Shown here in pieces: positions 3,129 through 17,799 of a DNA stretch of 22,339 bases (positions are counted from its first letter, which is position 1; each line of letters begins with the position of its first letter). The stretch comes from a virus. The notes below the pieces were generated by a model that made no database searches, was not told the DNA's origin, and saw only the letters and a program-made list of their open reading frames with translations. Location: the UHGV virus genome UHGV-0337617; one strand, written 5' to 3'. The translations under genes and the position numbers were made by a program.

Positions 3129-4442
3129 TTAACTTACTGATTTTAATAAGCCTCTGGTGTCACTTTGGTGACTATGGGGCATCATTGGGACATAATCTGT
3201 CAGCTTCTGATTCAGCATTGCGATCTGTTCTGCATTGCTGTCAGTCATCCATGCTCCGTATACATTGAATACCATCTGGGCACTTGCATGGCCCATCTGG
3301 CTGGCAATGAAGCTTGGGTTTGCTCCGGCAGATAATGACCAGCACGCATAAGTGTGTCGTGACTGGTATGCCTTTCGATGCCTGATCCCTGCACGCTTAA
3401 TGGCTGTTTCCCATGAGTCACCTACAGAATCGACTTTGTAGACAAAACCTACCTGTTCGCTTTTTCTAACCACTTGAGGGTTAAACACGAAAGTACATTC
3501 ATGGTTCACTGAACGTCCATATTCACGTAGTTGCACCTTGATGTTGTACTGCTTACCCAGTCTTGTCATTTCAGCCTGATTTTTCAGGACACTGATAGCG
3601 GGCTGGATAAGGTGCACAACCCTGTTTGTGCTTGCTTCAGTTTTCGGTAGAGTGAACTCACCAAGTTTCGTATAATTGCGCCTGATGGTAATTGTTCCTG
3701 CCTTCAGATCGATATCTTCCCAGGCCAGGGAGACCAGTTCACCGTGACGCATTCCTGTGTACACAGCCAATGACCACAGGTTTTTCGTCTGCTGATGTCG
3801 GCAAGCATCTATCAGGCGAATAAATTCGTCACGAGTTAGCGGATCTGGCTCTGCCCTGGCTCTTTTAAGAGGCTTAATTCCCTGGAAGGGATTTGCTTCT
3901 AAGTAACCGTGATCTGCAGCAAACTGAAACATTCCAGCGATTGTCGTCATGTAATAATTTACAGTAACGACGCTCCGTCCTTTTGCTGCTGCTTTGTTTT
4001 TCGTTGAATTCTGATACCCGGTCAGCAAATCTTTCCTGATATACAGCAATTCCTCTTTGGTTACCGATGACACCAGTTTACTGCCTCCAATTTTCGGAAC
4101 CATCGTTCTTGCAACGGATTCATAGCGATTGAATGCATTTGCAGAGATTTCCATTCGTTTCAGATCCAGCCACTTTTCTTCAAGTTCCTTCACCGTAATT
4201 TCTTTTTTACTTACCCCAAAAGCCTGAAGGTTGGGGGAGTCAGGGAACTGTGCAGCATAATCAAAGCTTCCTGTGCGGATGGCAAAACATACTGATGTCC
4301 GCAGTTCCCCGGCGATCTTCCTGTTCTTGGCAGTGTCAGGGACACCAAGATTTTCCCTGACACGTTTACCTTTAAAATTAAACCAGATGCGTAATGTGCC
4401 GCCGTGGTTTTCGACGCCTGTTGGATATTTGACTTTATCCAT
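3129..4442 (-). CDS. int: Tyrosine recombinase / phage integrase
   Basis: 437 aa; C-terminal catalytic region with R...HxxR...Y pattern (GMRHGELVSL, RHTYACW, NVYGAW); GGAGGT RBS; xis-like gene immediately upstream. Confidence 0.9.
   Translation of the reverse strand: MDKVKYPTGVENHGGTLRIWFNFKGKRVRENLGVPDTAKNRKIAGELRTSVCFAIRTGSFDYAAQFPDSPNLQAFGVSKKEITVKELEEKWLDLKRMEISANAFNRYESVARTMVPKIGGSKLVSSVTKEELLYIRKDLLTGYQNSTKNKAAAKGRSVVTVNYYMTTIAGMFQFAADHGYLEANPFQGIKPLKRARAEPDPLTRDEFIRLIDACRHQQTKNLWSLAVYTGMRHGELVSLAWEDIDLKAGTITIRRNYTKLGEFTLPKTEASTNRVVHLIQPAISVLKNQAEMTRLGKQYNIKVQLREYGRSVNHECTFVFNPQVVRKSEQVGFVYKVDSVGDSWETAIKRAGIRHRKAYQSRHTYACWSLSAGANPSFIASQMGHASAQMVFNVYGAWMTDSNAEQIAMLNQKLTDYVPMMPHSHQSDTRGLLKSVS
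3174..3192. repeat. Second copy of TGGGGCAT(C)ATTGGGACA repeat at the 3' end of int; candidate arm-type site
   Basis: Matches 2965-2982 except one base; lies inside the last codons of int. Confidence 0.4.
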
Positions 4443-5579: not shown

Positions 5580-6407
5580 TTATTTAACCTGGATAAATGG
5601 TGTATTGGCACCGCTGGTCATGTATTGCGGCAGCGTGCCGTTCCATTTATTGATGGCTTCCAGCTCCATAACACCGGGGTTCTGACGCAGAGCTTCACCG
5701 CGTAAACGAATAGCATCGGCTTCAGCCTGGGCTTTTGTGCGAATCGCATCAGCCTGTCCGGCAGCTTCCGCGCGCAACATGTTGGCTTCCGCTTCGCGCT
5801 GTTTTACTTCCTGCTCGCGTTGCAGAGTTTTCTGGTTCGCCGTGACTTTGGCATTAATGCTGTCGATAACAGTAGGCGGGTACTCCGGCTTACCCACATA
5901 TGAGAGGCTTATTACCTGAATACCGATGGGCGTCATTTCTTCCTGAATGTCTTTAAGAGCTGCATCCAGCAGCTCAGACTTGCCGCCGTCGATAAATTTG
6001 TCGGTGGTCATTTTGCTGGCCAGTCGGTTGAGTGCGTCGGCTATCTTCTGGCGCAGGTCGGTGTCGGTAATGTCGTCCACGCCTTTGCGGTAGGTCTGAA
6101 AGACTGTGGTAACTTTGGATGGATCAACCTTGTAGGCTACTCCGATGTGGTAACCAATGGTTGTTCCATCGCTCATCTGGAAACTGAATGGATCATCGTA
6201 GGTCTTCATCTGCTTAAAGGTCGGGAAGATATAAACTTCAGTGTTCCAGCCTGTCCAGTAGCGACCAACACCGACCACTTCACCGACGCCTTTGTCGTCG
6301 CCAAGTTTGTTGACTTTGATGCCCACATTACCAGGCTCAACACGATCACAACCGACAAGGCCAATGGCAGGCAGAACAATGGCTAAAGAAAAAATAATTT
6401 TTTTCAT
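5580..6407 (-). CDS. SPFH/band-7 (prohibitin/stomatin-like) domain lipoprotein
   Basis: 275 aa; signal peptide with lipobox LVGC; central band-7-like region and C-terminal Ala/Glu/Arg-rich coiled coil (AEANMLRAEAAGQADAIRTKAQAEADAIR). Confidence 0.75.
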   Translation of the reverse strand: MKKIIFSLAIVLPAIGLVGCDRVEPGNVGIKVNKLGDDKGVGEVVGVGRYWTGWNTEVYIFPTFKQMKTYDDPFSFQMSDGTTIGYHIGVAYKVDPSKVTTVFQTYRKGVDDITDTDLRQKIADALNRLASKMTTDKFIDGGKSELLDAALKDIQEEMTPIGIQVISLSYVGKPEYPPTVIDSINAKVTANQKTLQREQEVKQREAEANMLRAEAAGQADAIRTKAQAEADAIRLRGEALRQNPGVMELEAINKWNGTLPQYMTSGANTPFIQVK

Positions 6408-8774: not shown

Positions 8775-8946
8775 CGTCATCAATACTCGCGTCGCTCTTG
8801 AATTTAAGAGCGATGCTCTTTATATCCTCTGAAATTATTACCAGATCACCATATGTTATATTTTTATTATTGCGCGCAGTGCTTTTTTGTATGAAATCAA
8901 GCAATTCACCAATGAGACAAATATGGTAAGCATCACAGTTTTTCAT
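8704..8946 (-). CDS. Hypothetical protein (80 aa from Met15), coupled to the upstream HTH gene
   Basis: ATGA overlap with the stop of 8943..9359; AAGGA RBS; 3' end overlaps convergent 8547..8774 by 71 nt. Confidence 0.4.
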   Translation of the reverse strand: MKNCDAYHICLIGELLDFIQKSTARNNKNITYGDLVIISEDIKSIALKFKSDASIDDAIYAYLAKIIDGSKIQPLDEPRQ

Positions 8947-9359
8947 GCGCAGATATCCTTTGCTGCCGTTTCGCCAGTTAACAGCCACATCGGATCGCAG
9001 CCAAGAATATTTGCCAGTGGGATAAGCATACTGATAGTTGGTTCATACTCTCCGCTCTCCCACTGGATGATAATTTCTTCATCGAGATCGAGCAGCCTGG
9101 CGAGTTCGGCGGTTGTTAAGCCGCAGGCTTCGCGTTGGGTGCGAAGACGGTTGTTGATTGCAGAATTTTTGTTCTGTAAAAGCATTGCTGACGATAGCTT
9201 TCTGGATATGCTATTTGTCATATCCCATGCCAGTCCTGCGCATGACTCTATATCGCTAGAGAGCGTAGCATCAGGTGTTGCTTTTGCTATTAGTGTAATG
9301 AGGCTGCCGAGGTTTTTCAGTTCTTCGAGACAGTCAAGAGTTGTAGCTTTATTGATCAT
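8943..9359 (-). CDS. HTH (XRE-type) DNA-binding protein with the helix-turn-helix at the C-terminus
   Basis: 138 aa; C-terminal LTTAELARLLDLDEEIIIQWESGEYEPTISMLIPLANILGCDPMWLL looks like an XRE HTH; first gene leftward of the OL operator cluster. Confidence 0.6.
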   Translation of the reverse strand: MINKATTLDCLEELKNLGSLITLIAKATPDATLSSDIESCAGLAWDMTNSISRKLSSAMLLQNKNSAINNRLRTQREACGLTTAELARLLDLDEEIIIQWESGEYEPTISMLIPLANILGCDPMWLLTGETAAKDICA

Positions 9360-9364
9360 GAGAT

Positions 9365-9442
9365 GATACCTCAGTTACGAACTTTGTTTTATGGTAACTA
9401 AGGTATCAAGGTGTGGCAAGTGATTTTTGATACTTTGGTTTC
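9365..9442. promoter_or_regulatory. Putative left operator (three 14-bp sites, GATAC-N4-GTNNC class)
   Basis: GATACCTCAGTTAC (9365-9378), GATACCTTAGTTAC (reverse, 9394-9407), GATACTTTGGTTTC (9429-9442); 32-bp centre spacing. Confidence 0.5.
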
Positions 9443-9462
9443 TTTTTGTGTTTTGTGTCTGG

Positions 9463-10119
9463 TCAGAAAATATCCCACCTGGCATCAACCACAACACCTA
9501 CTATTTCGCAATCATTGTCCATTTCTATGATTGGATATTGTGGATTAAGGGGCTTTAGAAACGCCTTTCCCATGTCAGAAATATATTTTTTGAATGTTGC
9601 TTCATTGGTGGATTTTTTTCTGGCGATGACGTAACACCCTGAAAAAACTTCTTTATCTGGGTTGACAAGGATCGACATTCCTTCAGGAAATGTTATTCCT
9701 ACGGGCGAAGTCATTGAGTCTCCGTGCACTTCCAGCCAGAACCCCCTCTCACCAGCGTATTTTACAGAATGCCTCCAATTATCCTGATCATACATGTTGT
9801 AGTCATCACCAGAAGTTGCGAATAATCCTGCCTGAACCCAGTTAATTACAGGGTAAGAGTGTGCTGTGTCTCTCTGTGGGCAGCTCTTAACATTATTTTC
9901 CCAATGCTTATCTTTTTCATCTCCGTTCTGAAGCCACTGCGGTGAACACCGCAGTGCAGCTGCAACTTTAAAAAGGGTGTCACCGTTGAAACTTTTTGTA
10001 AGGCCTTGCTCGGCTTTACTGATTGCAACTCTGGTGATCCCAGCTTTTTTAGCCAACGCATCTTGTGTTAACCCAGCTTTTTGCCGTGCGTTGATGAGAC
10101 GTTCACCTAAAGACTTCAT
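9463..10119 (-). CDS. cI: cI-like phage repressor with HTH and S24 (LexA-like) autopeptidase domain
   Basis: C-terminal FWLEVHGDSMTSP...FKK...LNPQYP resembles lambda cI; N-terminal HTH (MKSLGERLINARQKAGLTQDALAKKAGI); GAGGAG RBS before Met26 of the longest ORF. Confidence 0.85.
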   Translation of the reverse strand: MKSLGERLINARQKAGLTQDALAKKAGITRVAISKAEQGLTKSFNGDTLFKVAAALRCSPQWLQNGDEKDKHWENNVKSCPQRDTAHSYPVINWVQAGLFATSGDDYNMYDQDNWRHSVKYAGERGFWLEVHGDSMTSPVGITFPEGMSILVNPDKEVFSGCYVIARKKSTNEATFKKYISDMGKAFLKPLNPQYPIIEMDNDCEIVGVVVDARWDIF

Positions 10120-10143
10120 TTTTCTTCTCCTCTCATGGCTGTT

Positions 10144-10213
10144 GATACTAAAGTAACAGAATTTCTTGATACTTTGGATTCCCGCGGTTAACATCGTTGG
10201 ATAACAAAGTATC
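10144..10213. promoter_or_regulatory. Putative right operator (three 14-bp sites of the same class)
   Basis: GATACTAAAGTAAC (10144-10157), GATACTTTGGATTC (10168-10181), GATAACAAAGTATC (10200-10213, palindromic); between divergent cI and rightward genes. Confidence 0.55.
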
Positions 10214-10230
10214 TGGTGTGAGACTAAAGA

Positions 10231-10458
10231 ATGACCCTTTATGAAATATTAAAAATTCAATTTAAAACCAATGCCGCTATTGGTCGCAGGTTCCCAAAGA
10301 AAGGAAGGCCTCGTGGCAGTCAAGGTGTTGGAAAGTGGAAAACGCGAGGTGTTCCGGAGGATGTTGCCATTCTTTGTCATCTGGATCCGAGCATTCCATA
10401 TACACACCCAAGTCTAGCGAATACAGAAGATGACAAGCCCACAGGAGACCAACAATGA
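10231..10458 (+). CDS. Hypothetical small basic protein in the cro position
   Basis: First rightward ORF after the operator; weak RBS and no clear HTH, so coding status is uncertain. Confidence 0.3.
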   Translation: MTLYEILKIQFKTNAAIGRRFPKKGRPRGSQGVGKWKTRGVPEDVAILCHLDPSIPYTHPSLANTEDDKPTGDQQ

Positions 10459-11162
10459 ACACCGCAATTTTTAACGGCAAAGCATCCATGACCAGCGTTG
10501 AGATCGCAGAGCTGGTGGGTAAACGTCATGACAATGTGAAACGCACTATTGAAACATTAGCCAAAGGTGGCGTTGTCCGGTCTCCTCAAATTGAGGTTTC
10601 CGAAAGAATCAATAACTTAGGTTTTAAAGTTCAATATGAGCATTACCTGTTTGAAGGAGAACAAGGTAAGCGCGACAGCATCATTGTCGTCGCACAGCTC
10701 TGTCCTGAATTCACTGCTCGCCTGGTAGATCGCTGGCACGAACTGGAAGAACAGATCCGTAAGCCAATGAGCGAAATCGAAATGGTTGCCGCGATGGCTC
10801 TTGAAGCAGTTCGTCAGCAGAAACGGATCACTCAGGTGGAAGAAAAAGTCAGCCACGTTGCTGAAACAGTCGAGCAAATTAAAAAGGGCACTATTCGTGA
10901 GGGCTATGCCGGATATCGCCAACTGAAAGCAAAAACCGGTTTGTCAGATGATAAATGCCGCAATCTGGTGAACGCCTATCAGATTCCTACAGACACCCAT
11001 GAGTTCATGACGCCGGACGGATTGTTGTCACGTCGCGCAATTGTTGCTGTGGAACCGTTTATGGCTGCTTTTTATCGGGTTATGGAGGAAGCAGAACCGC
11101 GAGGGACTCGCTGGTATCACCCGAAAATGGGGTTATTTCAGGTTATTGGTTGGCAGCGGTGA
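10455..11162 (+). CDS. Rha-family phage regulatory protein
   Basis: 235 aa; N-terminal region resembles Rha family (SVEIAELVGKRHDNVKRTIETL); AGGAGA RBS; ATGA overlap with previous ORF. Confidence 0.7.
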   Translation: MNTAIFNGKASMTSVEIAELVGKRHDNVKRTIETLAKGGVVRSPQIEVSERINNLGFKVQYEHYLFEGEQGKRDSIIVVAQLCPEFTARLVDRWHELEEQIRKPMSEIEMVAAMALEAVRQQKRITQVEEKVSHVAETVEQIKKGTIREGYAGYRQLKAKTGLSDDKCRNLVNAYQIPTDTHEFMTPDGLLSRRAIVAVEPFMAAFYRVMEEAEPRGTRWYHPKMGLFQVIGWQR

Positions 11163-11384
11163 AAAAAAGCCGGGAGTAACCCGGCTCACTCAACATCAAT
11201 AACGGGGAGCTGTTTCGCATAAAACGGCTCCGAAACATCCAAGAACAGTTCTAAAGATATCAGCAGCTATATGATCATTTCAAGACCAAATATTGATTCT
11301 GCAATTTCGGGACGTTACACTGTCTCCGCACCTTATAAAGCGGGTGCCGGGGGTCGCAGCCCGGAATTGTCAACGGCGATATAT

Positions 11385-11404
11385 GACGCGCCAGCGTCTT
11401 TTTT
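11385..11404 (+). terminator. Putative intrinsic terminator inside the early-right operon
   Basis: GACGC-GCCA-GCGTC hairpin followed by TTTTTT. Confidence 0.4.
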
Positions 11405-11570
11405 ATCGTCCGCGCTCACGCACGCCAGAATTATGGTGGGCTGGGCAGGGGAGCCGAAAGGCTCGCCGGTCTCCGTTGACGCCGGTACTGCGAACCCTGT
11501 TCAGTCTGCCACCAGTGAGTTTCGCAGCTCCGGTGGTGGAAGTTTTCCACAGTCAACGGAGGCTGCCATC

Positions 11571-12122
11571 ATGGCTACGATCCCAACCCTCACTCAACCT
11601 GAAATTGCCATCGTTGATGGTCAGGCTGTTACTTCATCCCTGGCTGTTGCCAACTTCTTCTCCAAGCGTCATGACGATGTACTGAAAAAGATCCGCACGC
11701 TTGAATGCTCCGCATCATTCACTGCCCGCAATTTTTCGGTGAGTGATTACACCGATTGCACAGGCCGCAAACTACCTTGCTATCAAATCACCCGTGATGG
11801 CTTCGCGTTCCTTGCTATGGGCTTTACTGGCAAACGTGCAGCCCGGTTCAAAGAGGCATACATCAACGCCTTTAACCTGATGGAGAAGAGTTTATCAGGT
11901 GCCGATGCGTCTGATATGTCAGCTGTCGCACGAAACGCCAGAGGCGTATACCTGCATTTGCGTGAAATCCATCAAATCTGGACAAGCCAGCTTTATCCAA
12001 TGCTTAAGGCCGTTGAATCTCCGCTGGCTAGCAAACTGTACGACCGTGTTGGTGATGCTGTTTTTGGCGCTGCACTTGTTGATTCCAGGCTGAATGGTTC
12101 TGACAAGGAGGTTCGCCCATGA
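11571..12122 (+). CDS. Rha-family phage regulatory protein (second copy, divergent sequence)
   Basis: GGAGG 8 nt upstream of ATG at 11571; PEIAIVDGQAVTSSLAVANFFSKRHDDVLKKIRTL is Rha-like; the ORF is open upstream to 11271 but that extension is low-complexity. Confidence 0.6.
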   Translation: MATIPTLTQPEIAIVDGQAVTSSLAVANFFSKRHDDVLKKIRTLECSASFTARNFSVSDYTDCTGRKLPCYQITRDGFAFLAMGFTGKRAARFKEAYINAFNLMEKSLSGADASDMSAVARNARGVYLHLREIHQIWTSQLYPMLKAVESPLASKLYDRVGDAVFGAALVDSRLNGSDKEVRP

Positions 12123-12313: not shown

Positions 12314-12534
12314 TCCGCCACATCGTTAATTCCCTGTATCACCGATACAACCGTTGCCCCCGTGTGGGGCAGTGGTTCGCCACCAGCAACGGTCACGTTC
12401 TGCGGGTTTGCCTAGTCAACGCTGAAAGCCAGAAAGTCGTGTGCGAACTACAGGGGCGTAGCTACACCATCAGTTACCCTCTGGCGGTATTTCTGTCTGG
12501 AAAAATGTTTAAGCGTCTGGGAGGTGTGGCGTGA
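12310..12534 (+). CDS. Hypothetical protein (74 aa)
   Basis: ATGA overlap with previous gene. Confidence 0.45.
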   Translation: MIRHIVNSLYHRYNRCPRVGQWFATSNGHVLRVCLVNAESQKVVCELQGRSYTISYPLAVFLSGKMFKRLGGVA

Positions 12535-17401: not shown

Positions 17402-17418
17402 TTTTGTGGAGAAAGTTG

Positions 17419-17799
17419 ATGCGTGATATTCAGATGGTTCTTGAACGCTGGGGGGCATGGGCTGCAAGTGGTAACACCGGGGTGGACTATTCTCCGATCG
17501 CTGCCGGATTCAAAGGACTTTTACCATCTGCCACTAAACCACGTCCGGCCTGCTGCGATGATGACGGACTTATCATTGAAAACTGTCTTGCTCGTCTGAA
17601 GCAGAAAAAACCTGAGGAGTATTCGCTTCTCATTGCTCATTATTTGTTGCGAATATCAAAAAGACAGATAGCCAGGACGAGAAAGAAAAGCGAAAAAGCA
17701 ATACGAATTGAGATGCAGATAGCCGAAGGGTTTATTGACGGATGTTTGTCTGTGCTGGGGGTAAGACTGGAGATGGACGACTGGCTGCTAAAAAAGTAA
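17419..17799 (+). CDS. Q: Late-gene antiterminator Q-like protein
   Basis: MRDIQMVLERWGAWAASGNTGVDYS...AGFKGLL... resembles the phage antitermination Q family; GGAGAAAG RBS; terminator about 70 bp downstream. Confidence 0.65.
   Translation: MRDIQMVLERWGAWAASGNTGVDYSPIAAGFKGLLPSATKPRPACCDDDGLIIENCLARLKQKKPEEYSLLIAHYLLRISKRQIARTRKKSEKAIRIEMQIAEGFIDGCLSVLGVRLEMDDWLLKK

What the first reader, a model, noticed from the sequence alone, without database searches (positions are those of the whole stretch)
9365..10213. Two tripartite operator sets sharing a 14-bp GATAC-N4-GTNNC site
Six related 14-bp sites are visible: three left of the repressor gene (32-bp spacing) and three between the repressor and the rightward genes, one a perfect GATA/TATC palindrome. 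This reproduces the lambda OL/OR architecture with a distinct site sequence, which would define this phage's immunity specificity.
Basis: seen in the sequence. Interest (0 to 1): 0.5.

Follow-up and report, generated by a model that had tools for sequence, protein, structure and literature searches.

The report
Repressor binding sites of a phiP27-type prophage
The six short repeats are almost certainly the DNA sites where this E. coli prophage's CI repressor (and its Cro partner) bind to hold the virus dormant; this is an ordinary lambda-style switch with its own site sequence, one that no paper I could search describes.

Summary
The six sites are real. All lie within the 214 bp of intergenic DNA on either side of the repressor gene. 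They occur at 28 per kb against 0.45 per kb in the rest of the window, and 0 of 20,000 composition-matched shuffles reach six.

Two details need correcting:
- Start-to-start spacings are 29 and 35 bp on the left and 24 and 32 bp on the right, not a uniform 32.
- Only four sites fit GATAC-N4-GTNNC exactly. The better consensus is (T)GATAC-N4-GTATC(A).

The window is an E. coli prophage whose immunity region is 95% identical to Stx2e phage phiP27. The repressor has a P22/434-type helix-turn-helix domain and a lambda-type self-cleaving C-terminal domain. The divergent 75-aa gene folds like Cro.

In nine lineages from five genera the right-hand sites align without gaps (24/32 bp spacing), although the DNA between them has diverged (identity 0.85 in sites, 0.49 in spacers). 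The sites overlap conserved PR and PL promoter matches.

Relatives with a changed recognition helix carry changed sites in the same positions (TAAAC-N4-GTTTA, GAAAC-N4-GTTTC, or P22-type).

Verdict: a new member of a known kind. Binding itself is untested, and PRM could not be located.

The parts
8943..9359 (-). First leftward gene: a 138-aa HTH_3 protein, homologue of phiP27 L10. It is the presumed first gene of the PL transcript. It is not the protein the sites track.
   Evidence: Pfam HTH_3 E 2.5e-11. phrog_4739, with a C-terminal part like phrog_4836. Annotated L10 in phiP27. Klebsiella, Salmonella and Yersinia relatives keep the sites without an HTH gene called in this position.
9365..9378 (.). 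Left operator site L1, GATACCTCAGTTAC. It lies in the predicted PL leader (centre about +12.5) and covers the Shine-Dalgarno GAGG of the leftward gene.
   Evidence: Invariant in the E. coli lineages apart from one centre-position substitution. An equivalent site sits 24-26 bp from L2 in Photorhabdus and Providencia. Absent in Klebsiella, Salmonella and Yersinia.
9391..9419 (-). Candidate PL promoter: -35 TTGCCA (9419-9414), 17-bp spacer, -10 TACCAT (9396-9391). Predicted start near 9384.
   Evidence: Consensus scan. The same register in relatives gives TTGCCC/TACCAT, TTGCAC/TACCTT, TTGACA/TACATT and TTGAAC/TACAGT.
9394..9407 (.). Left operator site L2, GATACCTTAGTTAC on the minus strand. It fills the PL spacer and overlaps the -10 (centre about -16.5).
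   Evidence: Present at this register in every lineage examined.
9429..9442 (.). Left operator site L3, GATACTTTGGTTTC. It starts 9 bp upstream of the PL -35 (centre about -51.5).
   Evidence: Strong half-site kept in all lineages, 34-35 bp from L2.
9463..10119 (-). cI repressor gene, 218 aa: P22/434-type HTH N-terminal domain plus lambda-type S24 self-cleaving C-terminal domain.
   Evidence: Pfam HTH_3 and Peptidase_S24. PDB: lambda cI C-terminal domain E 1e-31; 434 Cro and P22 C2 N-terminal domain E 1e-8. The alignment keeps VQAG, GDSMT and FKK at the positions of lambda's cleavage site, Ser and Lys. 97.7% identical to the phiP27 'putative lambda repressor'.
10144..10157 (.). Right operator site A, GATACTAAAGTAAC. 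It is nearest cI, in the OR3-like position, with its centre about -50.5 from PR.
   Evidence: In register in nine lineages, 24 bp from site B (Providencia and Yersinia).
10166..10194 (+). Candidate PR promoter: -35 TTGATA (10166-10171), 17-bp spacer, -10 TAACAT (10189-10194). Predicted start near 10201.
   Evidence: Consensus scan. TTGATA-17-(TAATAT/TACTAT/TAGATT/TAGTAT) is conserved in relatives.
10168..10181 (.). Right operator site B, GATACTTTGGATTC. It overlaps the PR -35 and spacer (centre about -26.5).
   Evidence: It is the most conserved site: 10 of 14 columns are invariant across eight lineages.
10200..10213 (.). Right operator site C, GATAACAAAGTATC. It covers the predicted PR start (centre about +5.5), in the OR1-like position.
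   Evidence: In register 32 bp from site B in all GATAC-type lineages. It reads GATACTTAAGTATC, with both half-sites matching the consensus, in Stx2_12E129.
10231..10458 (+). cro-like gene, 75 aa, first gene of the rightward operon.

Best explanation
The six sites are the operators of a lambdoid CI/Cro lysis-lysogeny switch of the phiP27 immunity type.

Shown:
- A CI repressor gene (P22/434-type helix-turn-helix, lambda-type self-cleaving C-terminal domain) sits between two AT-rich intergenic regions.
- Each region carries three imperfect 14-bp dyads, consensus (T)GATAC-N4-GTATC(A). Each dyad has one strong GATAC half and one weaker half.
- The sites overlap outward-facing sigma-70 promoter matches.
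- Site sequence and position are conserved across genera, and the site sequence covaries with the repressor's recognition helix.

Inferred:
- In the lysogen, CI dimers occupy sites B and C (PR -35/spacer and start) and L2 and L1 (PL spacer/-10 and leader). This shuts off cro and the replication genes on the right and the early-left genes.
- The upstream sites A and L3, both centred near -51, probably add cooperative binding through the lambda-like C-terminal domain. They may also allow OL-OR looping over about 770 bp.
- Site A lies 24 bp from the cI start codon. It is placed to limit cI transcription at high CI levels, as OR3 does in lambda.
- After DNA damage, RecA-stimulated self-cleavage at the conserved Ala-Gly site frees the operators. 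Cro, made from PR, then binds the same sites to keep cI off.
- Because the site sequence differs from those of lambda, 434, P22 and other known phages, it defines a separate immunity group.
For: - Clustering far above chance.
- CI domains, lambda-like C-terminal domain and conserved cleavage and catalytic motifs.
- Cro-like fold of the divergent gene.
- PR and PL consensus matches overlapping the sites, conserved in position in relatives.
- Ungapped register of sites A, B and C (24/32 bp) in nine lineages from E. coli, Klebsiella, Photorhabdus, Salmonella and Serratia, and also in Providencia and Yersinia.
- Across the eight GATAC-type lineages, mean pairwise identity is 0.85 in site columns, 0.49 in spacers and 0.33 in flanks (Mann-Whitney P 4e-10).
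- Among 24-28 distinct E. coli variants, nearly all substitutions inside sites fall in the central N4 or in the weak half.
- Covariation of helix and site:
  - [T/S]RVAISKAE goes with GATAC sites in six genera.
  - SRMAISKIE (Serratia) goes with TAAAC-N4-GTTTA.
  - SRVTISKIE goes with (C)GAAAC-N4-GTTTC(G).
  - The P22-like helix SNAAISQWE goes with ATTTAAG..CTTAAAT-type sites.
- More distant CI homologues with other helices have no GATAC sites beside cI.
Against: - No binding or transcription data exist for this phage in anything I could read.
- The promoters are only 9-of-12 consensus matches.
- No PRM could be identified consistently across lineages, so autoregulation is inferred from geometry alone.
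- Site placement differs from lambda, with one site downstream of each predicted start and spacings of 24 to 35 bp. Which pairs cooperate is therefore unknown.
- The strong half of four sites is embedded in TTGATA, a -35-like hexamer. For site B, part of the conservation is confounded with promoter function.
- The putative recognition stretch of Cro (SQxVGKW) is invariant across the three operator groups. It is therefore not shown that Cro reads the same specificity positions as CI.
Confidence: 0.85

Rival explanations
1. The sites are bound not by CI but by the other helix-turn-helix protein next to them, the 138-aa product of 8943-9359. This would make them an autoregulatory or DicA-like operator set.
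For: The protein has an HTH_3 domain with weak DicA-like matches. Site L1 lies directly on its ribosome-binding site.
Against: - Its helix region (…DEEIIIQWESGE…) is unrelated to the helix that covaries with the sites.
- Klebsiella, Salmonella (L125) and Yersinia relatives keep five GATAC sites in register but have no HTH gene called left of OL.
- Three of the six sites lie between cI and cro, far from this gene.
Confidence: 0.04
2. The repeats are not protein operators. They are recurring -35-like promoter hexamers (TTGATA), or chance AT-rich repeats in AT-rich intergenic DNA.
For: Four of the six strong halves read TTGATAC. The intergenic regions are 36-38% G+C against 49% for the window.
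Against: - Composition-matched shuffles give 0.086 hits against 6 observed.
- The sites are dyads with a conserved second half and a fixed 4-bp centre.
- Sites C and L1 lie at or downstream of the predicted starts, where a -35 hexamer has no role.
- The half-site sequence changes with the CI recognition helix, while the true -35 and -10 hexamers stay in place.
Confidence: 0.03
3. The inverted pair L1/L2 acts mainly at the RNA level. In read-through transcripts coming from cI it forms a hairpin that hides the ribosome-binding site of the leftward gene. Its resemblance to an operator would then be secondary.
For: The arms are 15 nt long and 93% complementary. The RNA fold is -20 kcal/mol, z -5.9, and includes the GAGG. 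This window lacks the terminator that relatives have just after cI.
Against: - In Photorhabdus and Providencia the two sites match the operator consensus but not each other in their centres, and their spacing differs (24-26 bp). What is conserved is the operator, not the hairpin.
- L2 lies upstream of the predicted PL start, so it is absent from the PL transcript.
- This role could at most be added to operator function; it would not replace it.
Confidence: 0.06

Closest known systems
Phage lambda OR/OL (cI, cro, PR, PL, PRM)
   Same: - The repressor gene is flanked by two sets of three imperfect dyad operators that overlap divergent early promoters.
- The repressor C-terminal domain is homologous to lambda cI (E 1e-31) and keeps the Ala-Gly, Ser and Lys motifs.
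- A small Cro is encoded divergently.
- One adjacent pair is 24 bp apart, as OR1-OR2 is in lambda (lambda value from my own knowledge).
   Different: - Sites are 14 bp (possibly 16-18), not 17 bp, and their sequence is unrelated.
- The DNA-binding domain is of the P22/434 class, not lambda's.
- One site of each set lies at or after the predicted start, and spacings are 24-35 bp.
- cI has a Shine-Dalgarno leader, so its transcript is not leaderless.
- PRM was not found.
- OL and OR are only about 770 bp apart.
- No N, cII or cIII was recognised (PMC3430580).
Phage P22 / phage 21 immC (c2 repressor and its operators)
   Same: - Closest characterised repressor: 44% identity over the full length, N-terminal domain E 1.4e-8.
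- Same operator geometry: half-sites separated by a 4-bp A/T-rich centre.
- P22-helix relatives L072 and L078 carry ATTTAAG-N4-CTTAAAT-type sites at the same places beside cI.
   Different: The half-site sequence (TGATAC against TTTAAG) and the recognition helix (TRVAISKAE against SNVAISQWE) both differ, so this is a different immunity group. The Cro here is from a different sequence family.
Phage 434 OR/OL
   Same: The operators are 14 bp with conserved outer bases and an uncontacted centre (from my own knowledge). The repressor N-terminal domain is in the same HTH_3 class (434 Cro E 1e-8, 434 repressor E 2e-4).
   Different: 434 sites are ACAA-N6-TTGT, and the proteins share no closer relationship.
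Operator regions of Stx phages 933W and H-19B
   Same: Stx-phage immunity regions vary in operator number: 933W has 3 OR and 2 OL sites, and H-19B has 4 OR sites (review PMC8065619). Here too OL varies between 2 and 3 sites among relatives.
   Different: The repressor and operator sequences are unrelated. phiP27-type operators are not described in any paper I could search.

Membership tests
Lambdoid CI/Cro immunity switch | Repressor with an N-terminal HTH domain and a C-terminal LexA/S24 self-cleavage domain | tested here: met
   Pfam HTH_3 E 1.7e-14 and Peptidase_S24 E 3.2e-22. Lambda cI C-terminal domain E 1e-31, with the VQAG, GDSMT and FKK motifs aligned.
Lambdoid CI/Cro immunity switch | Small Cro-type DNA-binding protein encoded divergently from the repressor | tested here: met
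Lambdoid CI/Cro immunity switch | Multiple imperfect dyad operators clustered on both sides of the repressor gene, far above background | tested here: met
   Six sites in 214 bp against 0.086 expected; 28 per kb against 0.45 per kb elsewhere.
Lambdoid CI/Cro immunity switch | Operators overlap the early promoters PR and PL | tested here: met
   This holds at the level of consensus matches only. PR is TTGATA-17-TAACAT and PL is TTGCCA-17-TACCAT, both conserved in register in relatives. Transcription starts are not mapped.
Lambdoid CI/Cro immunity switch | Operator sequence coevolves with the repressor's recognition helix (this is what defines an immunity group) | tested here: met
   Four helix variants pair with four site types at the same positions.
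Lambdoid CI/Cro immunity switch | Autoregulated maintenance promoter (PRM) overlapping the cI-proximal operator | tested here: inconclusive
   A relaxed promoter scan on the cI strand in nine lineages found no candidate conserved in position. Geometry (a Shine-Dalgarno sequence upstream of the ATG, site A 24 bp from the ATG) forces any nearby promoter to overlap sites A and B.
Lambdoid CI/Cro immunity switch | Repressor and Cro physically bind the sites with differential affinity and cooperativity | not testable with these tools
   This needs EMSA, footprinting or ChIP.
Lambda-type early regulation (N/nut, cII, cIII) | N antiterminator as the first PL gene, and cII after cro | tested here: not met
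   The first PL gene is an HTH_3 protein, and the genes after cro are Rha/Ant-like. Smith et al. 2012 also found no N, cII or cIII in P27 (PMC3430580). A Q antiterminator is present at 17404-17799.
P22 immC immunity group | Operators of the ATTTAAG-N4-CTTAAAT type and the c2 recognition helix SNVAISQWE | tested here: not met
   The sites here are GATAC-N4-GTATC and the helix is TRVAISKAE. P22-type sites occur only in relatives with the P22-type helix. The repressor is homologous (44% identity) but belongs to a different immunity group.

The most novel reading that the evidence does not exclude
One CI/Cro scaffold spread across Enterobacterales carries at least three natural operator specificities in an identical promoter and operator frame: GATAC, TAAAC and GAAAC half-sites. 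The CI recognition helix changes with the half-site (A-to-T and A-to-I, V-to-M). The presumed recognition stretch of Cro (SQxVGKW) stays invariant, and only Cro residues 12-13 switch (KT against GS). If Cro reads mainly the shared xAxAC-N4-GTxTx core while CI reads the variable positions, Cro proteins would cross-react between immunity groups while repressors would not. That would be an asymmetric 'anti-immunity' relationship between heteroimmune prophages, and a compact natural system for studying how the helix-turn-helix recognition code evolves.
Probability: 0.2. Interest if true: 0.5.

Novelty: new member of a known kind. Interest (0 to 1): 0.3.

Why it matters
The result gives a concrete, testable operator consensus and promoter map for the phiP27-type immunity region. 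That region is carried by Stx2e, Stx1a and Stx2a-converting phages and by a prophage present in 195 of 5,426 complete E. coli genomes, including ST131 strains. In Stx phages the repressor-operator interaction controls prophage induction and so toxin release (review PMC8065619). Knowing the sites allows prediction of which prophages are homoimmune. It also supports the design of reporter and induction assays, and the use of the three natural specificity variants to study repressor-operator coevolution. Conceptually it is one more lambda-style switch, so a specialist would not be surprised.

Tried and rejected
- **The phiP27 genome paper** (Recktenwald and Schmidt 2002, PMC127862) is not held. 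I cannot say whether it already lists these operators.
- **Full-text searches** for the exact site strings and for P27 with operator terms returned nothing relevant: only unrelated primer matches and two reviews or comparisons that give no P27 operator.
- **PRM search:** a relaxed -35/-10 scan on the cI strand in nine lineages gave only lineage-specific candidates. Examples are GTATCA-16-TAGTAT in the window and TTGTAT-17-TAGAAT in Klebsiella and Salmonella. I do not assign a PRM.
- **The genome-contig scan with CI** returned only relatives at 51% identity or less. Relatives with the same helix had to be reached through Cro homologues.
- **Other matches within 2 mismatches in the window** (for example 11105, 12344, 16056) lie inside coding regions, have G/C-rich centres, and occur at close to the chance rate. 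I rejected them as operators.
- **Uniform 32-bp spacing** is rejected.
- My first coordinates for cI (ending at 10120) were out of frame. The correct start is 10119.
Full report
**What is there**

The region 9360-10230 holds a leftward gene for a 218-aa protein (9463-10119, minus strand). It is flanked by two AT-rich intergenic stretches of 103 and 111 bp (36-38% G+C against 49% for the window). Each stretch has three 14-bp sites.
- Left: 9365-9378 GATACCTCAGTTAC (L1); 9394-9407 GATACCTTAGTTAC on the minus strand (L2); 9429-9442 GATACTTTGGTTTC (L3).
- Right: 10144-10157 GATACTAAAGTAAC (A); 10168-10181 GATACTTTGGATTC (B); 10200-10213 GATAACAAAGTATC (C).

Each site has one strong half (GATAC, usually preceded by T or TT), a 4-bp A/T-rich centre, and a weaker half (GTTAC, GTTTC, GTAAC, GATTC or TTATC). 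The best consensus is therefore the dyad (T)GATAC-N4-GTATC(A).

**Is it more than chance?**

- All six sites are within 2 mismatches of the dyad. The three matches with 1 mismatch or fewer are all among the six.
- Six of the 45 GATAC pentamers in the window fall in 214 bp, which is 1% of the window (P = 4.6e-6).
- Shuffling the two intergenic stretches themselves, which keeps their AT-richness, gives a mean of 0.086 hits. None of 20,000 shuffles reaches six.
- Site density is 28 per kb against 0.45 per kb elsewhere.

Start-to-start spacing is 29 and 35 bp on the left and 24 and 32 bp on the right, not 32 throughout. Only four sites fit GTNNC exactly. The 'perfect palindrome' is perfect only in its outer GATA/TATC.

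**Where the window comes from**

- The stretch 8900-10500 is 95% identical to Stx2e-converting phage phiP27 (genes L10, L11, L12). It is 85-86% identical to a set of Stx1a- and Stx2a-converting phages.
- The same 1-kb region occurs once each in 195 of 5,426 complete E. coli genomes, always on the chromosome. This includes 100% matches in human isolates.
- Gene order in the window is lambdoid:
  - integrase (3129-4442)
  - early-left genes
  - repressor
  - small divergent gene
  - Rha/Ant-like genes
  - DnaC-like and DnaB-like replication genes
  - Q antiterminator (17404-17799)
  - methylase
  - lysozyme

**The proteins**

*The 218-aa repressor.*
- It has HTH_3 and Peptidase_S24 domains.
- Residues 87-215 match the lambda cI C-terminal domain (E about 1e-31). 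The alignment keeps VQAG, GDSMT and FKK where lambda has its Ala-Gly cleavage site and its catalytic Ser and Lys. The motif match is a tool result; the roles of those lambda residues are established knowledge.
- Residues 1-70 match 434 Cro and the P22 C2 N-terminal domain (E 1e-8).
- Among sequenced phages, only phiP27 and the Stx phages above carry this repressor at 90% identity or more. The next relatives are P22 c2 and phage 21 at 44%.

*The divergent 75-aa ORF (10231-10458).*
- It has no Pfam, NCBIfam or PDB sequence match.
- It forms a well-conserved family in Klebsiella, Salmonella, Yersinia, Photorhabdus, Providencia and others.
- Its AlphaFold2 model is confident (pLDDT 87).

I therefore call the two genes cI and cro.

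**Promoters**

The consensus scan finds two promoters that face away from cI.
- PR is TTGATA-17-TAACAT (10166-10194, plus strand).
- PL is TTGCCA-17-TACCAT (9419 to 9391, minus strand).

Taking the start as 7 nt after the -10 hexamer (an inference) gives the following placements.
- Site B covers the PR -35 and spacer (centre -26.5).
- Site C covers the PR start (centre +5.5).
- Site A lies upstream (centre -50.5).
- L2 fills the PL spacer and touches the -10 (centre -16.5).
- L3 lies upstream (centre -51.5).
- L1 lies in the leader (centre +12.5), on top of the Shine-Dalgarno sequence of the first leftward gene.

**Comparative test 1: conservation**

Across 24 and 28 distinct variants of the two intergenic regions from 69 E. 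coli-type loci, the GATAC halves are almost invariant. Most substitutions inside sites fall in the N4 centre or in the weak half.

I reached more distant relatives through Cro homologues: Klebsiella L120, Photorhabdus L123, Salmonella L125, Providencia L127 and Yersinia L128. Their CI proteins are only 61-74% identical to the window's, but all have the same recognition-helix region [T/S]RVAISKAE.

Anchored on site B, the right-hand regions of nine lineages align without a single gap through sites A, B and C, with spacing 24 and 32 bp. The Providencia and Yersinia loci, scanned separately, have their three right-hand sites at the same 24 and 32 bp spacing. The inter-site DNA has diverged. For the eight GATAC-type lineages of the alignment, mean pairwise identity is:
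- 0.85 in site columns
- 0.66 in the -10 hexamer
- 0.49 in the other spacer columns
- 0.33 in the outer flanks

The difference between site columns and the spacer and flank columns is significant (Mann-Whitney P = 4e-10).

The PR -35 TTGATA and a -10 hexamer 17 bp downstream are kept in all of them. On the left, L2 and L3 and the PL hexamers are kept in every lineage; in Photorhabdus the promoter reads TTGACA-17-TACATT. L1 is present in the E. coli lineages, Photorhabdus and Providencia, and absent in Klebsiella, Salmonella and Yersinia. OL therefore has two core sites plus one lineage-specific site. This recalls the variation in operator number among Stx phages described in the review PMC8065619.

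**Comparative test 2: covariation**

- A Serratia prophage (L071/L084) has a CI about 50% identical, with helix SRMAISKIE. At the same registers on both sides of cI it carries TAAACTAAAGTTTA, TAAACTTTAGTTTA, TAAACCAAAGTTAC and GATACTTTAGTTTA.
- Two further loci (L129, L130) have helix SRVTISKIE. They carry (C)GAAAC-N4-GTTTC(G)-type sites, again about 24 and 31 bp apart.
- Loci whose CI has the P22 c2 helix (SNAAISQWE) carry ATTTAAG..CTTAAAT-type sites in the same positions.
- More distant homologues with other helices have no GATAC dyads next to cI.

The site sequence follows the repressor's recognition helix while the promoter frame stays fixed. This is what is expected of operators. It is not expected of promoter elements or chance repeats.

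**Mechanism**

*Shown:* the anatomy, the conservation and the covariation described above.

*Inferred from the known behaviour of lambda, 434 and P22 repressors:*
- CI dimers on B and C block PR, and CI dimers on L2 (and L1) block PL.
- A and L3, each near -51, probably contribute cooperative contacts through the lambda-like C-terminal domain. They may also allow OL-OR looping over about 770 bp.
- A is only 24 bp from the cI start codon, and that interval holds the Shine-Dalgarno sequence. Any nearby maintenance promoter must therefore overlap A and B, which gives A the negative-autoregulation position of lambda's OR3.
- RecA-stimulated self-cleavage after DNA damage lifts repression.
- Cro made from PR then occupies the same sites.

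I could not locate PRM. A relaxed scan in nine lineages gave no candidate conserved in position.

**Rivals**

- *The neighbouring 138-aa HTH protein as the binder.* This is unlikely. Relatives without an HTH gene in that position keep the sites, and half the sites lie on the other side of cI.
- *Mere -35-like hexamers or AT-rich chance repeats.* The shuffles, the dyad structure, the sites downstream of the starts and the covariation all exclude this.
- *L1 and L2 acting as an RNA hairpin.* The two are inverted copies that would fold into a -20 kcal/mol hairpin over the leftward gene's ribosome-binding site in any read-through transcript. This window, unlike its relatives, has no terminator after cI. 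The hairpin is not conserved in Photorhabdus or Providencia, so at most this is an added role.

**Comparison with known systems**

- It works like lambda OR/OL.
- The DNA-binding domain and the half-site-N4-half-site geometry are closest to P22 c2.
- The 14-bp length recalls 434.
- It fails membership of the P22, 434 and lambda immunity groups, because site and helix sequences differ.
- It also lacks the lambda N/cII/cIII layer (PMC3430580).

It is therefore a new member of a known kind, best described as the phiP27 immunity type.

I found no paper in the searchable library that prints or discusses these sites. The 2002 phiP27 genome paper could not be read, so prior description cannot be excluded.

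**Verdict**

- Confidence that these are the CI/Cro operators is about 0.85.
- Interest is modest (0.3). The result is useful for predicting immunity and induction behaviour in Stx and ST131 prophages, and the three natural specificity variants make a neat coevolution system. It is not surprising.

Noticed in passing
window 9364-9408 (minus strand): Operator sites L1 and L2 are inverted copies: 15-nt arms, 93% complementary, 15-nt loop. As RNA they fold to -20 kcal/mol (z -5.9) and would bury the GAGG ribosome-binding site of the leftward HTH gene in any transcript that reads through from cI. The hairpin is not conserved in Photorhabdus or Providencia.
   Followed up: partly
window 9443-9462; compare L120 1660-1694, L123, L125, L127, L128: Klebsiella, Salmonella, Photorhabdus, Providencia, Yersinia and Serratia relatives have a clear rho-independent terminator (AAAAAAAGCCGG...CCGGC) between the cI stop codon and L3. 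The window and the other E. coli lineages have only a T/G-rich stretch there, so cI transcripts may read through OL.
   Followed up: no
L071/L084 (Serratia), L129, L130: There are sister immunity types in the same CI/Cro family: TAAAC-N4-GTTTA with CI helix SRMAISKIE, and (C)GAAAC-N4-GTTTC(G) with SRVTISKIE. Both sit in the same register relative to PR and PL as the GATAC sites.
   Followed up: partly
window 10231-10458 and alignment A3: The Cro-like family has an invariant SQxVGKW..GVPEDVAILCH core in all three operator groups. Residues 12-13 are KT in the GATAC group and GS in the two other groups. This may mark where Cro reads the variable operator positions, or it may mean that Cro is less specific than CI.
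   Followed up: no
window 8943-9359 (minus strand): The first leftward gene, where lambda has N, encodes a 138-aa HTH_3 protein (phrog_4739; its C-terminal part resembles phrog_4836 'CII-like regulator' and DicA). In the Stx1a/Stx2a relatives it is replaced by a longer protein of about 215 aa annotated as a transcriptional regulator. Its role in the switch is unknown.
   Followed up: no
window 10455-11162 and 11271-12122: Two Rha/Ant-like genes follow cro directly, where lambda has cII. The first is Phage_pRha (phrog_63, anti-repressor Ant); the second is Ash plus Phage_pRha. phiP27 has an extra leftward ORF (L13) between cro and these genes that the window lacks.
   Followed up: no
window 5580-6407 (minus strand): An SPFH/Band 7 family protein (275 aa) is encoded in the early-left region. 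phiP27 and a relative annotate the corresponding gene as 'lipoprotein' and 'serine protease' respectively.
   Followed up: no
window 12344-12357: One further exact match to GATACN4GTNNC (GATACAACCGTTGC) lies inside a coding region and has a G/C-rich centre. I judged it a chance match.
   Followed up: partly
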